Assembly (NCBI GenBank): GCA_958296135.2 | Contig: CATQHZ020000001.1 | Coordinates: 2,176,001 to 2,240,000, forward strand | DNA length: 64,000 bases | From: an uncultured Poribacteria bacterium | GTDB lineage: Bacteria; Poribacteria; WGA-4E; WGA-3G | Reading direction: 5' to 3' | Shown: one piece after another, positions 44,413 through 61,393 of the stretch | How the letters are laid out: each line of letters begins with the position of its first letter | Numbering within the stretch: the first letter of the stretch is position 1 | Notes under the pieces: model-generated | The model's database searches: none | Told to the model about the DNA's origin: nothing | The model's input: only the letters and a program-made list of their open reading frames with translations | Translations under genes and position numbers: made by a program

Positions 44413-47299
44413 GAATCTCGGCCCGTTTTACGTCACACCGGTCGAACTTGATTTTGAAAACGGACCGTTGGCTGATGCTTCGCTCGTGGCGATCACAGGG
44501 CGGACGGGTGCGGGGAAGACGATGCTGTTCGATGCGATCTGCGTCGCGCTTTACGGCAAAACGCCGCGCTTGGATGGTATTGAAGACAAACACCCGAGGC
44601 ACCTTCTCAGCCACGACAGGACCGAAGGTCATGCCGAGGTGATTTTTGAGGCGAACAGAACACGTTACCTCGCTAAGTGGTCCATAGAACGTGGCGATTC
44701 ACCAAGCGGAAAGCTAAAGGTTGTTACTACCGACGAGTTAATCACCGACAGGTTACACCCGCTTGGCAAATCTACTGGCAGTAGCGAGAGGATGATTAGC
44801 GAAGAAATTGAGTCTATCTTGGGACTTGATTTTGATGCATTCAAGCGGTCTGTCATGTTAGCGCAGGGCGAATTCGCGGCGTTCCTGAAAGCAGCCCCCG
44901 CAGACAAACTGAAAATTTTGACGGCCGCCGCAGACCTTGGCATTTACGATGACCTAAGAGGCGCGTTAAAAGAAAAAATGAACGCGGTTAGGGCTGACCT
45001 GAGAACGGCTTTAACGGAACCAACCACTATCCTAGGATTTGTCGACCTGACAGAGTTGGCTCCCGCAAAAAGCGTTTTAAGAGAACTAGACAATATTCTA
45101 TTACGGAACGGTGACCCCGGCAAAACCGGCAAAGGATTTGTTTCCAAGGACCTAGACGCTATTCTAGGAGTCCTGCGCAAACAGGTTTCCGATGCAAAAG
45201 AGACGCTATGCCGTTTGAAGAAGGACGCGAGCGCACTTGCCGATCTGGCAGAGGAACACGAATGCAAAAAGCGGCGAGAAGAAGAGCGGACCGAGGCGTT
45301 TAAAAAATTGGAATGTTCCAAAAAATGCCTATGCGAACTCCTCGCTCGGGCACCGGAAATTGCGGCACTTGAGAAAGAACTTGAACGCGCCATTCTCGCC
45401 AACCAACTCCATCACGAAAAATCGGCTTACGATAACGCCAAATCCGAACAGGACGAGGCTGAGTCGGAACTTCGCGATGGAAAAAAGAAGCGCGACGAGG
45501 CACAAAAGGATAGTGACTTGCGGCGCGCCATTTTTGACGAAATTGACGATGCCTACCAAACTGCCTTGTCAGAAGCCCAGACGAAAAAGGCTGCCTACAA
45601 TGCAGCGATACCTGATCTGAGGTCAGCGCATAACCTGTTTGCACGCGCGGATGCCCTGATTCCCGAAGAGAAAAAACTGGAGGAAAAGATTGCCAGTTTG
45701 TCCTCCCAGTTAACTGACGGTAGAAAGCGTCGAACGAAATTGGTAGGACAGATCCGAAAGGCGGAGACGTTCATTGATGAAAATCCGCTCCCGGCAGATC
45801 GACAAGAACGGCTTAAGCTGCGGGACTTGGCGGTTCTGGCAAATCCTATCAAAGCACTGCGCCAGAAACTTAATAGCGGTGAACCTTGTCTCGTCTGTGG
45901 TGCAACGGAACATCCGCATGCCCATGAGATCGCAAGCGAGATAGGATCCGCCACTGAACCCCTTCTCTGGAACGCGATACCTGATTACCTCCACGGGCTC
46001 GGACCCACACTTGAGGAAGCCTTATCTCGAGTAGTCAAACGGATAGACGCTGTTGAAGCGCGCGAAGAAGAGTGCAGACAGAAACAGAGTCAGTTGCGAG
46101 AACTTGACTTGACTATCCAGGCAACCCAGCGTGAACTTGAAAACGCTGAGGACACTAGAAAATCGGTTCTCGCCGACATTGAAGGCTACCAGCGCGATGG
46201 CAATGAACTTTTGGCTGCCGCCAGTGAGAAAACTGGCGGGTTGACAACCGAAGCGGAGATTGATGCCGCTCTCAAAAATCTCGAAGACGCGGTTCGGGAG
46301 AAGGCAACTCAGCGCGACGAAGCCAAGAAGGCACTTACGGACAGCGAGACATTGCTAACTCAGGCACAAACCGACTATAACCTTCGCGTATCCCTCCGTG
46401 ACAAATGGGCGGCAAAACTCGAAACGGCACGCAAGACTTACCTAGATAAGTTAAGCGGTACCGGGTTTGACTCCCCGGAGGCACACGATAACGCGTTTCG
46501 GGAAGAAGAGTGGATAGAGGCGGCAAAGCTCAAGATCGCAAACTATCGGCAAGAAATGCACCAACTTGAGGTAGCCATTGCCGAACTGAGCGCGCGATTT
46601 GAGGAAACGCCGTTCGATCCAAAGAAATTGGGACAGATTATCGCGAAATTGGCAAAGATTGAGGAAGATATTCGGAAGGTGGACCAAAGGATTGGCGCGC
46701 AACGGCAGATCGTCACTAACTTGAAGGATGCCCTTTCCAAGTTTAATGACTCGGCGGAGAAAGTCCGGGAGGCCTACGAGGAATTCTCGCGATGGAACAA
46801 TTTGCGGATGACAATCGCACACCCCAACCCCGGTGCCCTGAGCAATTTCGCGTTGCAGGTTGTGCTTGAGCAAGTCAGTCAGTTTGCCAATACGCAACTA
46901 GAATACCTGACATCCGGCCGGTATCAACTCAAGGTTGAAGTTATCCGCAAGCTTAGCGGCCTCAAACTCACCGTCGTTGACAAGTGGAACGCAAACAAGG
47001 AACGTCCCGTCGAAACGCTCTCCGGCGGTGAATCATTCCTCACAAGCTTCGCGTTGGCTCTTGGATTATCGGAGGTTAGTCGCGGTCGCGCCCAAATCGA
47101 TTCGCTTTTCCTTGACGAAGGCTTCGGCACACTCGATGCCGAGACGCTTGACATCATCATCGACTCGCTGGATAGACTCCGCAAGCAGGGACGCAGCATC
47201 TTCCTCATCAGCCACGTTGAGAAACTCACGAGACGTTTGCCTGTCGAAATCCGCGTACGAAAAGGGAGAAACGGGAATTCAACGGTTGACGTTGGTTGA
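44387..47299 (+). CDS. sbcC: SbcC (Rad50-like) SMC ATPase
   Basis: GRTGAGKT, LAQGEF, CLVCG zinc hook, LSGGE and LFLDEGFG motifs. Confidence 0.92.
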   Translation: MKVIQLRLKNLGPFYVTPVELDFENGPLADASLVAITGRTGAGKTMLFDAICVALYGKTPRLDGIEDKHPRHLLSHDRTEGHAEVIFEANRTRYLAKWSIERGDSPSGKLKVVTTDELITDRLHPLGKSTGSSERMISEEIESILGLDFDAFKRSVMLAQGEFAAFLKAAPADKLKILTAAADLGIYDDLRGALKEKMNAVRADLRTALTEPTTILGFVDLTELAPAKSVLRELDNILLRNGDPGKTGKGFVSKDLDAILGVLRKQVSDAKETLCRLKKDASALADLAEEHECKKRREEERTEAFKKLECSKKCLCELLARAPEIAALEKELERAILANQLHHEKSAYDNAKSEQDEAESELRDGKKKRDEAQKDSDLRRAIFDEIDDAYQTALSEAQTKKAAYNAAIPDLRSAHNLFARADALIPEEKKLEEKIASLSSQLTDGRKRRTKLVGQIRKAETFIDENPLPADRQERLKLRDLAVLANPIKALRQKLNSGEPCLVCGATEHPHAHEIASEIGSATEPLLWNAIPDYLHGLGPTLEEALSRVVKRIDAVEAREEECRQKQSQLRELDLTIQATQRELENAEDTRKSVLADIEGYQRDGNELLAAASEKTGGLTTEAEIDAALKNLEDAVREKATQRDEAKKALTDSETLLTQAQTDYNLRVSLRDKWAAKLETARKTYLDKLSGTGFDSPEAHDNAFREEEWIEAAKLKIANYRQEMHQLEVAIAELSARFEETPFDPKKLGQIIAKLAKIEEDIRKVDQRIGAQRQIVTNLKDALSKFNDSAEKVREAYEEFSRWNNLRMTIAHPNPGALSNFALQVVLEQVSQFANTQLEYLTSGRYQLKVEVIRKLSGLKLTVVDKWNANKERPVETLSGGESFLTSFALALGLSEVSRGRAQIDSLFLDEGFGTLDAETLDIIIDSLDRLRKQGRSIFLISHVEKLTRRLPVEIRVRKGRNGNSTVDVG

Positions 47300-47399
47300 T
47301 TTCGGAAACGGAGCGGATTTTGAACGACATCCGCCCCGACGACTAAAGGGCGCGCTTGCAAAGCGCGCCTACTGGTATAGAGTGAAATGGAGGATTTCT

Positions 47400-48158
47400 A
47401 TGCAATTTGGCTTCATGTCATCCGTCTGTCCGCCGCTAACGCTGGCAGAACTCATTGACAAAGCGAAACACTATAACTATCAACACCTAGAATTCCGCGT
47501 GGAATGGAAACACGGACACGGTGTTGAATTGGACGCAACCCCGGAACAACTGCGCGAGGCAAAAGCGCGCCTCGCCGACAGCGGCATCGCACTCTCCTGC
47601 ATTGCAACCGGTTGCAGATTCGTCAGTGCGGACGCACAAGAACGCGCCGCGCAGGTGGAATTGCTTAAGCGATATATCGGGCTCGCCGAAACGATGGGCG
47701 CGCAGAATATTCGGATCTTCGGAGATCCGGTGCCGAAAACACCGGTTGAGGTAGCAGAAACGCTCGATTGGGAGGCAGATGGCATCCGCGCCTGCGACGA
47801 ACTCGCCGGTGAAGCGGGAGTCGCGCTCTGTCTGGAGACGCACGGCAATCTCATCGCCAGTTACGTATCTGAAGTGCTGCACCGAGCGGAGGCGCAGCAT
47901 ACCTTCGTGAATTGGCACGCGGCGCATCATGTCCGGCATGGCCAACCCGTTGACGTAGCGTATGCGCATCTGCGTGGGAAGATTCGGCACGCGCACGTCA
48001 ACTTCGGCAGTGAAGGCCCGATGCCTGACACGGAGAAGGACTCCCTCACGCTCCTCGCGCGAGATGGATATACGGGGTTCGTGTCAATAGAGGTGATTAA
48101 CCCACCGGATTCGGATGCGGTGCTGCAACGGCATGCGGAACTCTATAACGCGCTCTAA
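47400..48158 (+). CDS. Sugar phosphate isomerase/epimerase
   Basis: HGHGVE, IRIFG, LETHG and SIEVI motifs; RBS GGAGG before ATG 47400. Confidence 0.85.
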   Translation: MQFGFMSSVCPPLTLAELIDKAKHYNYQHLEFRVEWKHGHGVELDATPEQLREAKARLADSGIALSCIATGCRFVSADAQERAAQVELLKRYIGLAETMGAQNIRIFGDPVPKTPVEVAETLDWEADGIRACDELAGEAGVALCLETHGNLIASYVSEVLHRAEAQHTFVNWHAAHHVRHGQPVDVAYAHLRGKIRHAHVNFGSEGPMPDTEKDSLTLLARDGYTGFVSIEVINPPDSDAVLQRHAELYNAL

Positions 48159-50362: not shown

Positions 50363-51295
50363 CTATGCAAAAACTACCTTGCGGCCCGGCGCGGCGAGCT
50401 GATGCTTCACGGCGAGCGCATAAAACCGCCGAAGCCCCGCAATCTCAGGATGCCCTAAATCGTAATGGATATGCTTTTGTAGGTAATCGCGGCAGAGGGG
50501 TTCGGGCAATCCAAGCTTTTGGGATTCAATGCGCGCGATTTCTGGGATTTGCGTTATCCCGCGCGTCTTTGCCTCACGTAGCACATCGGGTGCATCGCCG
50601 AGTTGCACACCTGTGCGCGCTACCCAGCACGCATAGACGAACGGCAGACCGGTGAGTTCATGCCACGCCGTACCTAGGTCTAGGCTATATTTCGTGGCGT
50701 TCAGTCGCCGAAGGGCGGCATCGCCGATGAGGAGCACCGCTTCGGATGCTGACGCGCCCGGGTCGGTGGATGGCGCGCACGGCGTGAATGTCGGATGAAT
50801 GCCGTATTTTTCTGCCAGCAAAATTTTCAGGAGCGCGATGGACGAACGCGAACTGGTATCCAACGCGACCTGCCGAATTTCGGGAATCGGCACGCGGCTG
50901 AACAGTTGGATACTCAGGACACTCCCTCGCGAAGCGATTGAAATATCGGGCAAGATGCGGTAGCCAGCATCCGGGGCGCGGAAATATTCAATAATCGGGA
51001 TTAAGCCGACATCCAGTTCGTTAGCCTTTAAAAGCACGGCGAGGCGGCTCGGCACCTCCACGCTGAGTCCGATCTTTGTCTCTTGTTTCTTGGCGCAACT
51101 CCCCTCACTCCCGGTAGGCGCGCGTTGTAAGCGCGCAACCTCAACACCCGGCAGCTCTCCATTCAAGAGAGGATAGATAAGCGGTTTCGTGTTCAGAAAT
51201 GAAACCGCCCCGACTCTTAAACACGCGCTACCGTAGACGGGATGACAAACCCTGCCCACGGCCTGATTTTCGGCTACGCCGCTTTTCTGTGCCAC
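50363..51295 (-). CDS. mqnA: Chorismate dehydratase (futalosine pathway)
   Basis: VSFLNTKPL, SVLSI, SSRSS, LLIGDAAL and DLGTAWHELTGLPFVYA motifs; start uncertain. Confidence 0.88.
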   Translation of the reverse strand: MAQKSGVAENQAVGRVCHPVYGSACLRVGAVSFLNTKPLIYPLLNGELPGVEVARLQRAPTGSEGSCAKKQETKIGLSVEVPSRLAVLLKANELDVGLIPIIEYFRAPDAGYRILPDISIASRGSVLSIQLFSRVPIPEIRQVALDTSSRSSIALLKILLAEKYGIHPTFTPCAPSTDPGASASEAVLLIGDAALRRLNATKYSLDLGTAWHELTGLPFVYACWVARTGVQLGDAPDVLREAKTRGITQIPEIARIESQKLGLPEPLCRDYLQKHIHYDLGHPEIAGLRRFYALAVKHQLAAPGRKVVFA

Positions 51296-55454: not shown

Positions 55455-56408
55455 CTACAAGTGCGCGCGCATCAGTTTCTGATATTCAGTGTGCGCCGCC
55501 TGCGCGTCATATTCGCCATCAAGGACGCGGCGGAGGCACCGCACAAAGCCTATCGGCGCATCTTCCCCAAAGATAGTACGGCCAAACAAGATGGCGCGCC
55601 CACCGTTCTGGACGACGTTCTCCGCAAGCGCAAATGTGCTACGCGCATTTTGACGCGGACCGCCTAAAGCACCGATAACCAGCGTCTCATCAAACTGGCA
55701 CAACTCACGCCACACCTCCGCCGTCGTGTAGGCGGTTTTGATGAAGCGCGGACGCTGATGCTTGCGCAAATAACTCATCGTGCGAACGATGGAATCCGCC
55801 ACATACATCCCCCGTTTCTCATCGTCCATCCCCGGCAATTTGACGTTAGGCAGGAAAACCTCGAGCAGATGATCGAATCCCTCAATCTCGCCGACGATGT
55901 GCGCGAATTGGACATACGCCTGCAACATCCGCTCGTCAGCACCCGGGTCGTTGTTCAGCGTGATGGAATACAGCCCGAGGTTGACCCGACACTCCAGGGC
56001 CGGCGCGATGAGTGCCTCGCAATAGCGGTGCATATCCTCGGGGAACACCGTCTGGAAAGGCATGGACGGCCGCGAGGTATAGACTCCGAAGCGCGGATTC
56101 CAGATAGCCGTCTCCGAGTTCATCCGGACAATCGGCGTGATGTGTGTGTTTTCAAAGAGGTTCTCTTCAAGTGCCAGCGTTTCGGCATCAGCAGGTGTCA
56201 TGAGAAGCCCATCGAGCTGCCCATCTGCAGCAAGTTCGCGTTGGAACTCCAAAAACTCCGCGTGCGTCCGGTAGTGTGGTTTGGGATGCTGCACCTGCCC
56301 GAGCCCCTTGATGCCTGCCGATGCAAGCGGGTCTGCAGCGAAGACCAGGATTGGGCTCCGCGCAAGTAGGGCGGTGTCAGCGAGTTTGTCAAATATCCGA
56401 TTGCCCAT
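55455..56408 (-). CDS. Class I aldolase-like TIM-barrel protein of unknown function
   Basis: HLLEVF, FIKTAY (putative Schiff-base Lys), ALGG and LFGRTIF motifs. Confidence 0.6.
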   Translation of the reverse strand: MGNRIFDKLADTALLARSPILVFAADPLASAGIKGLGQVQHPKPHYRTHAEFLEFQRELAADGQLDGLLMTPADAETLALEENLFENTHITPIVRMNSETAIWNPRFGVYTSRPSMPFQTVFPEDMHRYCEALIAPALECRVNLGLYSITLNNDPGADERMLQAYVQFAHIVGEIEGFDHLLEVFLPNVKLPGMDDEKRGMYVADSIVRTMSYLRKHQRPRFIKTAYTTAEVWRELCQFDETLVIGALGGPRQNARSTFALAENVVQNGGRAILFGRTIFGEDAPIGFVRCLRRVLDGEYDAQAAHTEYQKLMRAHL

Positions 56409-56510
56409 GTATTCTTCCTTTTTTGTCAGCATTTACGCCGCTTCTGGTAGGCGCGGTTTCAAACCGCGCGCTTGCAACACGCGCCTACCGGCGGACGTTT
56501 TGTATCCATC

Positions 56511-59051
56511 CTACAAAACGCTCGTCGGATCGATGTCTATCATCAATTCAACGGCGTTGGATCTAATTGCGGGCGGCGGCTCGGCAGTCAACTGCTGAAT
56601 GCGTTGTGAGATAGCTTCAGCAGTTGCGCTGCGGAGCAAAAAGTGCCACCGGAATTTTCCTTCAATTTTTGAGAGCGGCGCAGGCGCAGGGCCCAGAACT
56701 TCCACCGAATCCTTGGTAGGCGGCGGTTGTAACCCTGCATCAGTTTGCAAGTGCTGAAGTTGATTCAGTACGGTGTGCGCTGCCGCAATAACCGCTTCTT
56801 CGTCTTTGCCGCGGAGGAGGAGCCGTGCCACATGCGAAAAAGGCGGGTATCGTAATTCTCCGCGCACCGCTACCTCTTGCTCATAAAAACCGACGTAGTC
56901 GTGCTGCTGCGCGGCCGTGATGCAATAGTGTTCTGGCATATAGGTTTGGATGATAACCTCGCCGGGGAGCTCGGCACGGCCGGAGCGTCCCGCGACCTGC
57001 GTCAGCAGGCTGAACGTCTGTTCACTCGCCCGGAAATCAGGGAAATTTAAGGCAGTATCCGCGGCGATAACGCCGACCAGGGTGACGTTTGGAAAATCCA
57101 AGCCCTTCGACACCATCTGTGTGCCTATGAGGATGTCGATTTCCCGCTGTTGAAATGCCGTTAAAATCTGTTGATGTGCGTTCTTTCGGGCAGTGGAATC
57201 GGCATCAAACCGTTTGACGTTCGCGGCAGGGAACGCTTTGCGAACCTCCTGCTCAATCGCCTCTGTACCCAAACCAAAATAGCGGATAGCAGGACTGCTA
57301 CACTGCGGACAAGTGGGATGTGTGTCGCATTTATGCCCGCAGTGATGGCAAACCAGTTTCTTAGTCTCGAAGTGAAACGTCAATGAAATGGAGCAGTTGT
57401 GGCACCGCTCAACGTAGCCGCAAGTTCGGCAGAAAACGTAGGTGGAGTGTCCGCGCCGATTCAGGAAGAGGATAATCTGCTCGCGTTTGACAAGGCGCGG
57501 CTCGATCGCGGCTCGGAGGCGCTTGGAGAAAATGGTGCGGTTTCCGCCTTTCAATTCCGCTCGCATATCAACGACATGCACTTCCGGCAGCTTTCTATCC
57601 AGCACCCGTGTGGGCAGGCTGAGGAGTTGATAGGTGCCGTTGCGAGCGCGGTGGAAACTCTCCAGTGCCGGTGTCGCACTGCCGAGTAGGAGCGCGCAGT
57701 TGGCAAGTTCACTCCGCTTCTGTGCTACCTCCCGCGCATGGTAACGCGGTGCTGTATCCGATTTATAGGAATCCGAGTGCTCCTCGTCAATAATTATTAA
57801 ACCGAGCGCCTTGACCGGGGCGAACACGGCGGAACGCGGGCCGATGACGATGGTGGCTCCGCCTTTTTGGACGCGGTGCCAACTGTCATAGCGTTCGCCA
57901 TCGCTCAGGCGGCTGTGCAGCACCGCAACGCGCTCGCCAAACCGCCCGATAAACCGCGAGGCAGTCTGCGGCGTCAACGAAATCTCTGGCACTAAGACGA
58001 TGACAGACTTCCCGCTTTCCAGAATCGACGCAATTGCCTGCATATAGACTTCTGTCTTGCCGCTCCCAGTTACGCCGTGAAGAAGCAAAATCCGCCTCAA
58101 TTCCGTAGGCGCGGTTTCCAACCGCGCTAGCGCGTTCTGGAGCGCCGCGAACGCCGCCCCTTGTGCCGGATTAAGTTGATAAGGTTTCGTGGCTGCAACC
58201 GGTTGGCAGCTCAGTGGATTCCGCACCACTGGTGCCTGTGTCATGCGGATGAAGCCGCGTCTTTCAAGGGTGCGGAGTAGGGAGGCACTTGTGCGCGCAC
58301 GCTTGGTGAGCTCTGCCGTGGCTACCGGCACCTCTTCATCAAGCAGGATTTGCAGAATTTCCGCGTGCTTCGCGGAGGCCGGCCGACGGCCCTTGCCTCC
58401 AAGACGTAGGGGTGGATTTCCGGAGCCGCCCGCTTCTTCCGTCAGTCTCGCAATTTCCGCCGCAATATCGGCAGGCGGCAAAGCAAGCGATGCTACGGTG
58501 GCCACCCGCGCGGTGGCCTTCGGTTTGTGGGTGACGTAGACATCAACAACGCCTTTTTCACGGAGCGCGGAAATCTTGGGACGGAGACTCGTGTAGTTGA
58601 CACCGACGCGCCGCGCAATCTGGTTTGGAGAGAGCTCGCCCTCCGCTTCCAACAGCGCGACAATCTCCTTCTGAACGCCCCTGACAGGGGGTGTACCGCC
58701 TTCTACCAGCTGCACCCGCTGCTGTTTCTGGCTGCGCACGGCGGCTGGCACCGCACAAAAGAGCGCGCTCCCCCATGAAGAGACGTAGTACTCCGCCATC
58801 CACCTCGTGAGCGCAAGCAGCTCAGCAGAGAACGTCGGAGATTTATCAAGACAGTCAGAGATGTTCTTGATTGACATAGGGGCCAAGTCTGTCGCGTCTA
58901 TCCGTTCAACGACGACACCTTCCTGTGTACTCCGCCGAAAAGGCGCAAGCACGCGGACACCCGGTTGCACAATAGCATCCAAATGCGGCGGCACGGCGTA
59001 TGTAAACAGCTGATCGATCGCCAGTGGGAAGGCGATGTTGGCGTAACGCAT
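56511..59051 (-). CDS. priA: Primosomal protein N' (helicase)
   Basis: GVTGSGKTEVY, VPEISLTPQ, DEEH, four CxxC and QVAGRSGR motifs. Confidence 0.96.
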   Translation of the reverse strand: MRYANIAFPLAIDQLFTYAVPPHLDAIVQPGVRVLAPFRRSTQEGVVVERIDATDLAPMSIKNISDCLDKSPTFSAELLALTRWMAEYYVSSWGSALFCAVPAAVRSQKQQRVQLVEGGTPPVRGVQKEIVALLEAEGELSPNQIARRVGVNYTSLRPKISALREKGVVDVYVTHKPKATARVATVASLALPPADIAAEIARLTEEAGGSGNPPLRLGGKGRRPASAKHAEILQILLDEEVPVATAELTKRARTSASLLRTLERRGFIRMTQAPVVRNPLSCQPVAATKPYQLNPAQGAAFAALQNALARLETAPTELRRILLLHGVTGSGKTEVYMQAIASILESGKSVIVLVPEISLTPQTASRFIGRFGERVAVLHSRLSDGERYDSWHRVQKGGATIVIGPRSAVFAPVKALGLIIIDEEHSDSYKSDTAPRYHAREVAQKRSELANCALLLGSATPALESFHRARNGTYQLLSLPTRVLDRKLPEVHVVDMRAELKGGNRTIFSKRLRAAIEPRLVKREQIILFLNRRGHSTYVFCRTCGYVERCHNCSISLTFHFETKKLVCHHCGHKCDTHPTCPQCSSPAIRYFGLGTEAIEQEVRKAFPAANVKRFDADSTARKNAHQQILTAFQQREIDILIGTQMVSKGLDFPNVTLVGVIAADTALNFPDFRASEQTFSLLTQVAGRSGRAELPGEVIIQTYMPEHYCITAAQQHDYVGFYEQEVAVRGELRYPPFSHVARLLLRGKDEEAVIAAAHTVLNQLQHLQTDAGLQPPPTKDSVEVLGPAPAPLSKIEGKFRWHFLLRSATAEAISQRIQQLTAEPPPAIRSNAVELMIDIDPTSVL

Positions 59052-59138: not shown

Positions 59139-60683
59139 CTACGGCAGATTGTGCAATTTTGGCAGCATGAACTCTGTCTGCTCATCCTTAAAATGACGCG
59201 CCGATTTGTGCCGCGATTCGATGCGCCACGGCAGCCGGATCGTTTCGTTCAGCGAGGCCGGGTTCGCAAAGTAACCGTCGTCAATCTGCCAAAACTGGAG
59301 GCGCGGATAAGATTCTCCGTTATGTTGGAATGTTCCCATGCTTTCCTGCATTGCCTTCATGCCGCTGCTGATTGGCTCTACCGTAATAAAAATGCCTACC
59401 TGCGCCTTCGCCTCACGGATAGCGTAACAGAACGCGCGAAGCGCAGATATGTTCGGTTTGCCGGATTTTACCTCGGCGATAACGCGCGTATGCCGCGCTT
59501 TCTGGTTACGTGGATTCCATACCTTCACGGTGCCGGTGCCATCAAAACCGCCATCGCCGACATTTGCAGTGGGTTCAAGCCCGATACGTGTCACTGCCCA
59601 GTTGGCGAAGTCGTGATACTTTTTCTGGTCGCGCACCAGCAGCGTCACTTCCTGCATATTCGTCGGGTAGCCCGCGATTTCATAATCAACGGAGGGCCCA
59701 AGTCCATGCCTGTCGCGCAGCCGTTTCTGTATTGCATCTAACGCGAGCAGCGTCACATCAATACCGAGCCACTGCCGATTCAGCGTCTCCGCTGCATCAA
59801 TCGTTGTACCGCACCCGCAGAACGGATCGAGCACAATATCGCCAGGGTTTGACGATGCCTCAATAAGTCGCTCATAAAGCGCGAGCGGCTTCTGTGTCGG
59901 ATAGCCGAGACGTTCCTGGGAAGTTGAACCAATTTGATTCATCTCACTACCCCGCAGATAGGTGAAGACATCGTCCATCGGGGTTCCCTCATCCCAATAG
60001 AACCGCTTCCATTCGCCGTTCTTATCTTTGGTATGATTCCTGCGGTATTTGCGCCCAGCCTCATCTTCATACTTGAACCGATGCTTGTCTTTCTCGGCAT
60101 ACGGCATCCGTGGTGGATTGAACACGAACGAGGGGCCTTTGACGTAACGCAGGATAATGTCGTGCTTGCGCTTGAAATCTAGACGCGGGGCACTCCCCGC
60201 AGAGTAGTGCCAAACAATTTCATTCCTGAAGTTGGCCACGCCGAACATGGCATCCATCAAACCTTTCAGATAATGACTCGCCGTTGGATCGCAGTGCAAA
60301 TACATGCTTCCCCTGGGCTGGAGCACGCGGTGGAGTTCAAGGAGGCGTGGCCCCATGAAGGCGAGATACGCGCGCATGGCACTCGGCGCGCCACTCGTCG
60401 CTTTCTGTAGCACAAAGTCGTACCCGATGAGCGCGTTGTTCAAGACGGCGTAACTTTCGGATGTCCGAGCGAGTCTGCCAATTTCACGCCGCGCGTCTTG
60501 CGCTGCATCGTCCCACGTCCACGTATCCACAAACGCTGTCCGCTGCGATTGTGACTCTGTCAAAAACGTGTTGTAGTTGCGGCCGCTGTTGAAAGGCGGA
60601 TCGGTGCAAACGAGATGGATAGACTCGGACTCCATTTCGCGCAAGATTTCCAAATTATCGCCGAAGTAAATTTTTCGCAGCAT
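59139..60683 (-). CDS. Beta-class DNA methyltransferase fused to an Mrr-like PD-(D/E)xK restriction endonuclease domain
   Basis: TDPPF, GYPTQKP and LDPFCGCGTT; C-terminal DGGFDG...AEVKSG...GIFIT. Confidence 0.88.
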   Translation of the reverse strand: MLRKIYFGDNLEILREMESESIHLVCTDPPFNSGRNYNTFLTESQSQRTAFVDTWTWDDAAQDARREIGRLARTSESYAVLNNALIGYDFVLQKATSGAPSAMRAYLAFMGPRLLELHRVLQPRGSMYLHCDPTASHYLKGLMDAMFGVANFRNEIVWHYSAGSAPRLDFKRKHDIILRYVKGPSFVFNPPRMPYAEKDKHRFKYEDEAGRKYRRNHTKDKNGEWKRFYWDEGTPMDDVFTYLRGSEMNQIGSTSQERLGYPTQKPLALYERLIEASSNPGDIVLDPFCGCGTTIDAAETLNRQWLGIDVTLLALDAIQKRLRDRHGLGPSVDYEIAGYPTNMQEVTLLVRDQKKYHDFANWAVTRIGLEPTANVGDGGFDGTGTVKVWNPRNQKARHTRVIAEVKSGKPNISALRAFCYAIREAKAQVGIFITVEPISSGMKAMQESMGTFQHNGESYPRLQFWQIDDGYFANPASLNETIRLPWRIESRHKSARHFKDEQTEFMLPKLHNLP

Positions 60684-60691
60684 GACGCAGG

Positions 60692-61393
60692 TTATCCTTG
60701 CTTTAAGAAATCCATCACCTTTTTGATGTCTTCCCACACGTCGCGCTTCGCATTCGGGTTGCGGAGCAAATATGCAGGATGATACGTCGGCATCACCATG
60801 GGCGCGTTTTCCCGCTGTCCCGCGATACCATACGGATAGAACTCGCCGCGCAGTGCCGTGATGCCCGTCTTCGTATTCAGCAACTTCTGTGCAGCGAAAC
60901 TGCCGAGTGCCACGATGACCTTCGGCTGAATGAGCTCGATTTGGCGTTCCAAATAAGGGCTACACATTTCCACCTCGTCGGATGCCGGATTTCTGTTGCC
61001 CGGCGGCCGGCATTTGAGTATGTTGGCGATGTAGACATCAGCGCGCGTTAAATGCATCCCTTTCTCAATGATGTCTGTCAGCAGTTTTCCGGCCCTGCCG
61101 ACAAAAGGTTCCCCGAGCCGGTCTTCATCAGCACCGGGTGCCTCGCCGACAAACATCAACGCTGCGTTCGGGTCGCCCACTCCGAAGACGACGGTATTCC
61201 GAGTCGCATGCAGGCCGCATCGGGTGCAACCCTGGGCATCGGCATCTAACTGGCGCAGGTCGAACGTAGCGTAAGGAGATTCCGGCTGTGGTTCCTGGAG
61301 TTCGGTGAAACCGAGTTCAAGTTGTTCTTGCACGTATTCCCTCACAGTTGCGACAAGTTGTAGGTATTCTTCTCTAATACTGTCTGTGTTCAT
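60692..61393 (-). CDS. Uracil-DNA glycosylase, family 4
   Basis: [22 protein letters not shown] and TYHPAYLLR motifs; start moved to ATG 61393. Confidence 0.92.

What the first reader, a model, noticed from the sequence alone, without database searches (positions are those of the whole stretch)
56716..58431. priA carries three REP-like inserts from at least two repeat families
Seen: gtaggcgcggtttccaaccgcgc (58105-58127) encodes ARLETAPT just before the Walker A strand. gtaggggtggatttccggagccgccc (58406-58431) encodes GGSGNPPLR in the winged-helix/linker region. The degenerate gtaggcggcggttgtaaccctgcatc (56716-56741) encodes DAGLQPPPT in the C-terminal domain. All are antisense to the gene and keep the frame. 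Inference: their different degrees of decay suggest repeated insertions of different ages tolerated in a replication-restart helicase.
Basis: partly seen in the sequence, partly recalled or inferred. Interest (0 to 1): 0.7.

Follow-up and report, generated by a model that had tools for sequence, protein, structure and literature searches.

The report
Mobile hairpin repeats inside priA
The replication-restart helicase gene priA of this sponge-symbiont (Poribacteria-like) genome carries three in-frame remnants of small mobile DNA hairpins (REPs) in floppy surface loops, a clear new example of a phenomenon already described in other bacteria.

Summary
priA (window 56511-59051, minus strand, 846 aa) holds three antisense, in-frame REP-like stretches.

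- **Site 1 (58105-58127)** is an exact copy of REP family B (GTAG + GCGCGGTT-NNN-AACCGCGC), which has about 500 copies in the genome.
- **Site 3 (56716-56738)** is a degenerate family-B copy. About 0.016 hits this good are expected by chance in priA. One congener has no insert there. Another has a perfect family-B REP there in the opposite orientation.
- **Site 2 (58406-58431)** matches neither family A nor B. It is a diverged copy of a third family, C (GTAAGGGCGGAT-N6-ATCCGCCC; 19.7 bits). It lies in a 22-residue linker that the whole taxonomic family shares and that three other families of the order lack.

All three map to the lowest-confidence loops of an AlphaFold model. Relatives in other genera carry their own REPs at sites 1 and 3.

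The phenomenon is genome-wide. At least 143 family-B copies lie deep inside long ORFs, and 41 of 64 are read as A-R-L-x-x-A-P-T. Confirmed examples include tgt and a menaquinone gene.

Decay does not track age: by phylogeny site 2 is the oldest.

Intragenic GTAG REPs are in print (Di Nocera 2013), and this scan has noted them before in other Poribacteria. This is a new member of a known kind.

The parts
56511..59051 (-). priA, 846 aa: 3'-DNA-binding domain, two winged-helix-like segments, helicase lobes, Cys-rich region, C-terminal domain
   Evidence: ORF. Pfam PriA_3primeBD, DEAD, Helicase_C, Zn_ribbon_PriA, PriA_C and HTH_11. E 1.7e-127 to PriA 4NL4. Walker A, DEEH and 8 Cys are invariant across 46 aligned PriA.
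58105..58127 (+). Site 1: intact family-B REP (GTAG head, 8-bp stem, 3-nt loop), antisense to priA. Encodes ARLETAPT (residues 309-316) between helix 295-313 and the strand 321-326 that leads to Walker A (329-333)
   Evidence: Weight-matrix score 38.3 of 40.1 bits. Hairpin -10.5 kcal/mol, z -3.5. 8-residue insertion relative to 4NL4. Mean pLDDT 65 for residues 311-320.
58406..58431 (+). Site 2: diverged family-C REP, antisense. Encodes GGSGNPPLR (208-216) in the linker between the two winged-helix-like segments
   Evidence: 19.7 bits on the family-C matrix, with 3 shuffled positions at >=10 bits. Same reading as other intragenic C copies, (A/T)GGYRNPPLQ. pLDDT <50 over residues 209-222. Linker is homologous in other genera, and both congeners lack 7 codons of it.
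56716..56738 (+). Site 3: degenerate family-B REP, 3 mismatches from the rare GCGGGGTT/AACCCCGC variant. Antisense; encodes DAGLQPPPT (771-779) in a loop of the C-terminal domain
   Evidence: +2.8 bits, about 0.016 expected by chance in priA. 24 nt extra relative to congener G002; G001 has a perfect sense-strand REP-B at the same place. pLDDT <50 over residues 773-778.
56447..56488 (.). Intergenic family-B REP pair just downstream of the priA stop codon: one copy on + at 56447-56469, and a second GTAG-headed copy read on the minus strand ending at 56488
   Evidence: 1 mismatch to the site-1 string. The second arm is read directly.

Best explanation
The three stretches are remnants of separate insertions of GTAG-type REP elements into priA. 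REPs are short mobile DNA hairpins of the kind mobilised by REP-associated tyrosine transposases (RAYTs). These copies survived because each landed in frame in a flexible surface loop or linker where extra residues do not harm the helicase.

They are passengers, not functional parts of PriA. Site 2 is an old insertion that became a permanent linker in this taxonomic family. Sites 1 and 3 lie in two loops that different lineages have filled repeatedly with their own REPs.

Shown here: membership in the repeat families, the gaps in orthologs, the loop locations and the genome-wide pattern.

Inferred: the insertion mechanism (RAYT-mediated), neutrality, and that the gene is functional.
For: Family membership:
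- Site 1 is an exact family-B copy.
- Site 2 scores 19.7 bits on family C.
- Site 3 scores +2.8 bits on family B, with about 0.016 expected by chance in priA.

The families are real, dispersed and GTAG-headed:
- 2297 of 26496 GTAG sites are followed by a hairpin (8.7%). The figure is 1.5-2.9% for seven control heads.
- Family B has 536, 1806 and 255 copies in the three congeners, with reversed-pattern controls of 0-1 per strand.
- Family C has 156, 38 and 33 copies in the same three genomes.

A RAYT is present. One ORF scores 125 bits on NF047646 (cut-off 80). A second Y1 ORF is flanked by family-A REP arrays.

Ortholog gaps exist at all three sites.

Independent hits fall at the same loops:
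- G004's priA carries, at site 1, a member of its own 118-copy REP family in sense orientation.
- Genus g5 orthologs carry sense B-type REPs at site 1.
- G001 carries a perfect sense REP-B at site 3.
- G018 carries a GTAG-headed hairpin at site 3.

Loop location: the only two model segments with pLDDT <50 are residues 209-222 and 773-778. Residues 311-320 average 65, against a model mean of 84.

Genome-wide context:
- 128 ORFs of >=300 aa hold family REPs at least 90 nt from either end.
- 18 of 20 sampled ORFs have Pfam domains, often spanning the REP.
- tgt shows a 7-residue gap exactly at ARLETAP against a solved TGT structure.
- 143 family-B loci scoring >=10 bits lie deep in long ORFs.

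All invariant PriA residues are kept. No second full-length priA match exists in the genome.
Against: - Site 3 is weak on sequence alone. In the 0-10 bit bin, roughly half of intragenic hits genome-wide could be chance: 83 shuffled positions score >=0, against 85 intragenic loci in that bin.
- Sites 2 and 3 no longer fold better than shuffles.
- Site 1 is not a clean presence/absence. Both congeners have longer, non-hairpin loops there (17 and 18 residues against 13). They share its left end, and G001 also shares its CTAC head.
- G018's site-3 hairpin occurs at only two places in its genome.
- No RAYT was shown to flank family B or C copies.
- Genes were called here as long ORFs, not by a gene finder.
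- All genomes are metagenome bins.
- There is no evidence from RNA or protein.
Confidence: 0.8

Rival explanations
1. REP remnants in these loops act as homing or gene-conversion targets. New copies of the same family replace or refresh old remnants at the same codons. On this view the recurrence at sites 1 and 3 reflects targeting by the REP machinery, not only a selection filter.
For: - Site 1 is a perfect copy in G000. Yet G001 keeps both of its ends (GCGCGATTG ... GCGCGTCTACGG) around unrelated inner sequence. priA third codon positions are only 66-67% identical between G000 and its congeners.
- Site 3 holds REP-B in opposite orientations in two congeners and nothing in the third.
- G000's site 2 scores 19.7 bits, while homologous segments in other genera score -1.9 or lower.
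Against: - No direct evidence of conversion tracts.
- The pattern can also come from independent insertions into permissive loops plus deletions.
- Only three genomes of the genus were available.
- Independent contigs show no alternative form in the one sample, though contigs drop rare variants.
Confidence: 0.2
2. The hairpins or the encoded peptides have been co-opted. Examples would be an mRNA structure that tunes priA translation or stability, or a preferred A-R-L-x-x-A-P-T peptide module with a role in the proteins that carry it.
For: - 41 of 64 intragenic family-B copies use one of five open readings (binomial p 2e-14), and 53 of 64 are antisense.
- Site 2's linker is kept at 22 residues in 25 of 53 orthologs.
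- Di Nocera et al. 2013 (passages read) note that many intragenic REPs lie in replication and repair genes.
Against: - The same element sits in unrelated enzymes: TGT, PurH, CoaBC, a P-type ATPase and an MqnA-like protein.
- Intragenic copies are more decayed than intergenic ones: median 15.7 against 27.7 bits, Mann-Whitney p 2e-14.
- Two of the three priA hairpins are lost.
- The loops vary freely in length among orthologs.
- The frame bias can come from selection against harmful readings.
Confidence: 0.1
3. Sites 2 and 3 resemble REPs by chance or by compositional convergence in G+C-rich, Gly/Pro-rich linkers. On this view only site 1 is a real REP.
For: - Sites 2 and 3 do not fold.
- Site 3 scores only +2.8 bits.
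- Site 2's linker is old and shared.
Against: - Site 2 scores 19.7 bits, with no more than 3 of about 10 million shuffled positions reaching even 10 bits. It shares the reading GG-x-x-NPPL with 11 of the 20 intragenic family-C copies listed.
- Site 3 coincides exactly with a 24-nt length difference to G002 and with a perfect REP in G001.
Confidence: 0.07

Closest known systems
Intragenic GTAG-tagged REPs (Di Nocera, De Gregorio and Rocco 2013, BMC Genomics 14:522, PMC3733652; passages read)
   Same: GTAG head plus a short G+C-rich hairpin. High-copy dispersed families, several per genome. RAYT genes present. A minority of copies lie wholly inside ORFs of known proteins, many of them in replication and repair genes. 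The authors suggest they are tolerated in flexible linkers or loops. The highest GTAG count was in Opitutus terrae, of the PVC superphylum.
   Different: - priA and 'primosom' do not occur in that paper's main text or in the 4 supplement files held.
- Poribacteria are not covered.
- Here single units predominate in the sampled genes, whereas the paper says more than half of inserts are dimers or groups.
- Here the same two loops are hit independently in several genera.
Rickettsia palindromic elements (RPE; Ogata et al. 2000, Science 290:347; seen only as cited in PMC3733652 and PMC3184786)
   Same: Selfish palindromic repeats inserted in frame in protein-coding genes that apparently stay functional.
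   Different: RPEs are about 105-146 bp according to the table in PMC3184786, against 23-26 nt here. They occur in a different host lineage. No sequence relation was tested.
REP/REPIN-RAYT systems of Escherichia coli and Pseudomonas (recalled; model NF047646 used)
   Same: GTAG-headed hairpins and inverted pairs. A RAYT-type Y1 transposase is encoded in the genome.
   Different: Those elements are described as almost wholly extragenic. Here 64 of 482 family-B copies (13%) lie deep in ORFs of >=300 aa.
Earlier notes of this scan on other Poribacteria genomes: e1-1538195 (restriction enzyme gene) and e1-1507505 (pbpC)
   Same: REP hairpins in frame in low-confidence loops of Poribacteria genes. 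Both notes name the same closest known family.
   Different: They concern other genomes and other genes, and were not checked here.

Membership tests
GTAG-type REP | Terminal GTAG (or degenerate GTRG/GYAG) tetranucleotide at one end | tested here: met
   All three sites begin with GTAG. GTAG is invariant in the 430 family-B copies aligned. Most family-C copies read GTAA or GTCA, and GTAG variants exist.
GTAG-type REP | Short G+C-rich imperfect palindrome able to form a hairpin (stems of 5-13 bp) | tested here: inconclusive
   Site 1 meets it: 8-bp stem, -10.5 kcal/mol, z -3.5. Sites 2 and 3 have lost it: z +0.19 and +0.18. This fits decayed copies.
GTAG-type REP | Member of a high-copy family dispersed through the genome | tested here: met
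   Family B has 348 copies at <=3 mismatches and 536 by pattern. Family C has 230 at <=4 mismatches and 156 by pattern. Controls gave 0-1.
GTAG-type REP | A cognate RAYT (REP-associated tyrosine transposase) gene, typically flanked by the REPs | tested here: inconclusive
   One ORF scores 125 bits on NF047646 (cut-off 80), but no family A, B or C copies flank it. A second Y1 ORF scores 57 bits (below cut-off) and is flanked by family-A arrays. No RAYT is tied to family B or C.
GTAG-type REP | Mobility, seen as presence/absence between close relatives | tested here: met
   Site 3 is absent in G002, and G001 has an opposite-strand copy. 7 codons of site 2 are absent in G001 and G002. Site 1 is ambiguous.
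PriA replication-restart helicase | 3'-DNA-binding domain, winged helix, two RecA-like helicase lobes with Walker A and DEEH, Cys-rich zinc region, C-terminal domain | tested here: met
   All Pfam domains score above their cut-offs. E 1.7e-127 to 4NL4. GSGKT, DEEH and 8 Cys are invariant in 46 sequences. Model pTM is 0.83.
Rickettsia palindromic elements | Element of about 100-150 bp of the RPE sequence families | tested here: not met
   The elements here are 23-26 nt. They work alike but are not members.

The most novel reading that the evidence does not exclude
In Poribacteria, REPs are a steady source of new protein sequence. Remnants in permissive loops attract or are overwritten by fresh copies of the same families. 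Some become fixed parts of proteins. The 22-residue linker between PriA's two winged-helix segments, shared by a whole taxonomic family, would then descend from one ancient family-C REP. Selection would channel intragenic copies into one preferred reading (A-R-L-x-x-A-P-T).
Probability: 0.25. Interest if true: 0.65.

Novelty: new member of a known kind. Interest (0 to 1): 0.42.

Why it matters
The finding shows that an essential, single-copy replication-restart helicase tolerates three selfish-DNA insertions, and that the same loops are hit again and again in related lineages. This gives a natural map of permissive sites in PriA. It also offers a tractable system (three congeners with 255 to 1806 family-B copies) for asking two questions. 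How do REPs enter coding DNA? Why does one reading frame dominate? It does not change what is known about REPs in kind.

Tried and rejected
- **Families A and B for site 2.** Scores were -39.5 and -22.1 bits, so both were rejected. The neighbour search then found family C.
- **Generic GTAG+hairpin scan of 53 priA orthologs.** It gave 15 hits, against 11-33 for control heads. There is therefore no overall enrichment. Only the G+C-rich hits cluster at sites 1 and 3.
- **G018's site-3 hairpin as a family member.** It occurs at only 2 places in that genome, so family membership is not shown.
- **A distinct B' subfamily (GCGGGGTT/AACCCCGC) in G000.** It has 0 exact copies and 4 at <=1 mismatch. It is too rare to date site 3.
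- **PurH as a second validated insert.** The alignment to 3ZZM shows only two one-residue gaps in a variable linker, so this is inconclusive.
- **ORF 46935-48158.** Its REP lies upstream of the only Pfam domain and may be outside the true gene.
- **Sequencing runs.** No RNA holder is listed. All 4 holders are one sample and are kept as contigs. They confirm the assembly but say nothing on expression or rare variants.
- **Literature.** A search for Poribacteria + palindromic + repeat returned 31 papers, of which 15 were listed. By title and abstract start, none was about REPs in coding DNA. Searches gave the known precedents.
- **Markov-chain null script.** It returned no answer. A triplet shuffle replaced it.
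Full report
**The gene**

The window holds an 846-codon ORF on the minus strand at 56511-59051.
- It has every PriA domain above Pfam's cut-offs, plus an extra HTH-like hit at residues 127-174.
- It matches Klebsiella PriA 4NL4 at E 1.7e-127.
- In an alignment of 46 PriA sequences, the Walker A motif (G329-T333), DEEH (422-425) and eight cysteines of the zinc region are invariant.
- The genome has no second full-length match. The two other matches cover only the helicase core, at E 2.6e-6 and 3.4e-5.
- Titles of related public records name Candidatus Poribacteria.

**The repeats are real families**

The site-1 string occurs 8 times at <=3 mismatches in the window, against 0 in shuffles. On the 5.0-Mb main contig it occurs 9, 67, 175 and 348 times at <=0, 1, 2 and 3 mismatches.

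A generic scan found a hairpin directly after 2297 of 26496 GTAG sites (8.7%). The figure was 1.5-2.9% after seven control tetranucleotides. It was 6.3% after TAGG, which overlaps GTAG.

The hits sort into these families:
- **Family A**: GTAG-SGCGAGGGCCTGTCCCTCGCS and variants, about 1040 copies.
- **Family B**: GTAG-GCGCG(G/C)TT-NNN-AA(C/G)CGCGC with a covarying stem pair, 482 copies. Its consensus extends to CC(G/C) before GTAG. In most copies a second head, CTAC, follows the stem.
- **Family C**: GTAAGGGCGGAT-N6-ATCCGCCC, found later.

Copy numbers among the three congeners:

| Family | G000 | G001 | G002 | Source |
|---|---|---|---|---|
| B | 536 | 1806 | 255 | |
| C | 156 | 38 | 33 | |

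Family C leaves only traces elsewhere, at 0-9 copies per genome. B-type copies also exist in five genomes of genus g5, at 11-168 copies.

A RAYT-type transposase is encoded, scoring 125 bits on NF047646. A second, weaker Y1 ORF is flanked by family-A arrays. No RAYT could be tied to family B or C.

**Site 1 (58105-58127; ARLETAPT, residues 309-316)**

- It is an exact family-B copy, scoring 38.3 of 40.1 bits on a matrix built without it.
- It still folds as a hairpin, at -10.5 kcal/mol with z -3.5.
- Against 4NL4 it is an 8-residue insertion immediately before the strand that leads to Walker A.
- In the model it extends helix 295-313 and forms the coil to strand 321-326. Mean pLDDT for residues 311-320 is 65.
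- The loop is 7-9 residues in 29 of 53 unique orthologs, 13 here, and up to 33 elsewhere.

Other lineages have filled the same loop with their own REPs:
- G004 (another genus) has GTAGGCACACTCCGTGTGCC in sense orientation. This is a member of a 118-copy family of that genome, and the priA copy is listed among them.
- Several g5 orthologs have sense-strand B-type copies.

The two congeners have longer, non-hairpin loops (17 and 18 residues). They share the left end of the REP, and G001 also shares the CTAC head. G001 and G002 are sisters at 88.6% nucleotide identity. G000 is the outgroup at about 83.5%. The REP is therefore either at least as old as the genus and kept or refreshed in G000, or it was inserted into an older remnant.

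**Site 3 (56716-56738; DAGLQPPPT, residues 771-779)**

- It scores +2.8 bits on family B. 32 positions of a triplet-shuffled genome reach that score, giving about 0.016 expected in priA's 5082 positions.
- It is 3 mismatches from the rare GCGGGGTT/AACCCCGC variant by my count of the printed strings. That variant has 0 exact copies and 4 at <=1 mismatch.
- The loop is 6 residues in 35 of 53 orthologs, 5 in G002, 13 here and 9 in G001.
- At the DNA level G000 has 24 extra bases relative to G002.
- G001 has a perfect REP-B (GTAGGCGCGATTTCCAATCGCG) at the same place on the sense strand.
- G018 has a perfect GTAG-headed hairpin there, although that hairpin occurs at only two places in its genome.
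- The model gives pLDDT <50 for residues 773-778.

**Site 2 (58406-58431; GGSGNPPLR, residues 208-216)**

- It matches neither family A nor B.
- It has 41 genomic neighbours at <=6 mismatches, against 0.85 for shuffled queries.
- These neighbours are family C. On the family-C matrix site 2 scores 19.7 bits. 334 genomic positions score as high, and only 3 shuffled positions reach even 10 bits.
- 20 of 229 family-C loci lie deep in long ORFs. 11 of the 20 listed are read as (A/T)GG(Y/D)(R/G)NPPLQ-like peptides, the same reading as in PriA.

The segment lies in a linker that is:
- 22 residues long in 25 of 53 orthologs, all of them in the same taxonomic family;
- 15 residues in both congeners, which lack 7 codons of it;
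- 2-3 residues in 15 orthologs, among them the representatives L025-L030 of the three other families of the order.

Homologous DNA at that place in other genera still scores well above the rest of their genes on the family-C matrix. For example, L032 scores -1.9 there against -19.6 elsewhere, and L008 scores -2.7 against -8.3. The simplest reading is one old family-C-type insertion at the base of the family, followed by decay and partial deletions. G000's copy is unexpectedly well kept. The model gives pLDDT <50 for residues 209-222.

**Genome-wide context**

By regex and hairpin detection:
- 64 of 482 family-B copies and 126 of 934 family-A1 copies lie in ORFs of >=300 aa, at least 90 nt from either end. 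The figure for random positions is 58%.
- These copies fall in 128 ORFs.

By weight matrix:
- 935 family-B loci score >=0 bits. Of these, 228 are deep in long ORFs, and 143 of the 228 score >=10 bits.
- Intragenic copies are more decayed than intergenic ones: median 15.7 against 27.7 bits, Mann-Whitney p 2e-14.

Of 20 family-B-bearing ORFs sampled out of the 64 copies listed, 18 have Pfam domains at E <=1e-5. In TGT, PurH, DUF2126, NTP_transferase, COX15, DUF790 and a P-type ATPase the REP lies inside the domain envelope.
- TGT shows a 7-residue gap exactly at ARLETAP against a solved TGT structure.
- PurH is inconclusive.
- In the window itself, an MqnA-like gene (50363-51295, minus) carries ARLQRAPT inside its Pfam match.

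41 of 64 intragenic family-B copies are read as A-R-L-x-x-A-P-T-like peptides. This is one of five open readings (p 2e-14). 53 of 64 are antisense.

**Artefact check**

Independent short-read contigs from four runs of one sample reproduce both halves of priA without any difference or gap. This is probably the source sample. It therefore excludes an assembly error only.

**What is known**

- Di Nocera, De Gregorio and Rocco 2013 (PMC3733652; passages read) describe GTAG and CGTC REPs inside genes of several species. Many lie in replication and repair genes, with the most GTAG cases in Opitutus terrae. The authors suggest tolerance in flexible loops.
- priA is not mentioned in that paper's text or in the four supplement files held.
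- Rickettsia RPEs are the classic in-frame case (cited).
- This scan has already noted in-frame REPs in other Poribacteria genomes (not checked here).

**Verdict**

The finding is a well-supported new member of a known kind. Four aspects are worth keeping:
- independent hits at the same two PriA loops in several genera;
- a family-wide linker that looks REP-derived;
- the strong reading-frame bias;
- the mismatch between decay and phylogenetic age.

Noticed in passing
window 50363-51295 (-), REP at 51114-51136: A menaquinone-biosynthesis (VitK2_biosynth, MqnA-like) gene carries a family-B REP in frame (ARLQRAPT at codon 53), inside the Pfam match that spans residues 26-296.
   Followed up: partly
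window 46935-48158 (+), REP at 47350-47372: A 407-aa ORF with a xylose-isomerase-like TIM barrel (residues 174-398) has a family-B REP at codon 138, upstream of the domain. The true start codon may lie downstream, which would make the REP a 5' leader element.
   Followed up: partly
window 56447-56488: A pair of family-B REPs in inverted orientation (REPIN-like), sharing their tails, fills the 78-nt gap between the priA stop codon and the next gene (55455-56432, minus).
   Followed up: no
G000 contig C2 (143,886 bases): This contig has 36.8% G+C, against 54.4% for the main contig. It may be foreign to the bin or a separate replicon.
   Followed up: no
G001 (same genus), whole genome: G001 holds 1806 family-B REP matches in about 4.4 Mb, against 536 in G000 and 255 in G002. 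This is a seven-fold range in copy number within one genus.
   Followed up: no
L011, L015, L021 (genus g5 priA), site-1 loop: These orthologs have 24-33-residue loops at site 1. The loops contain a shared EARHH(D/G) segment beside the REP-like hairpin, which suggests stacked insertions.
   Followed up: no
window 59139-60737 (-): Directly upstream of priA lies a 532-aa ORF. I took it for a DNA methyltransferase from its sequence alone and did not test this.
   Followed up: no
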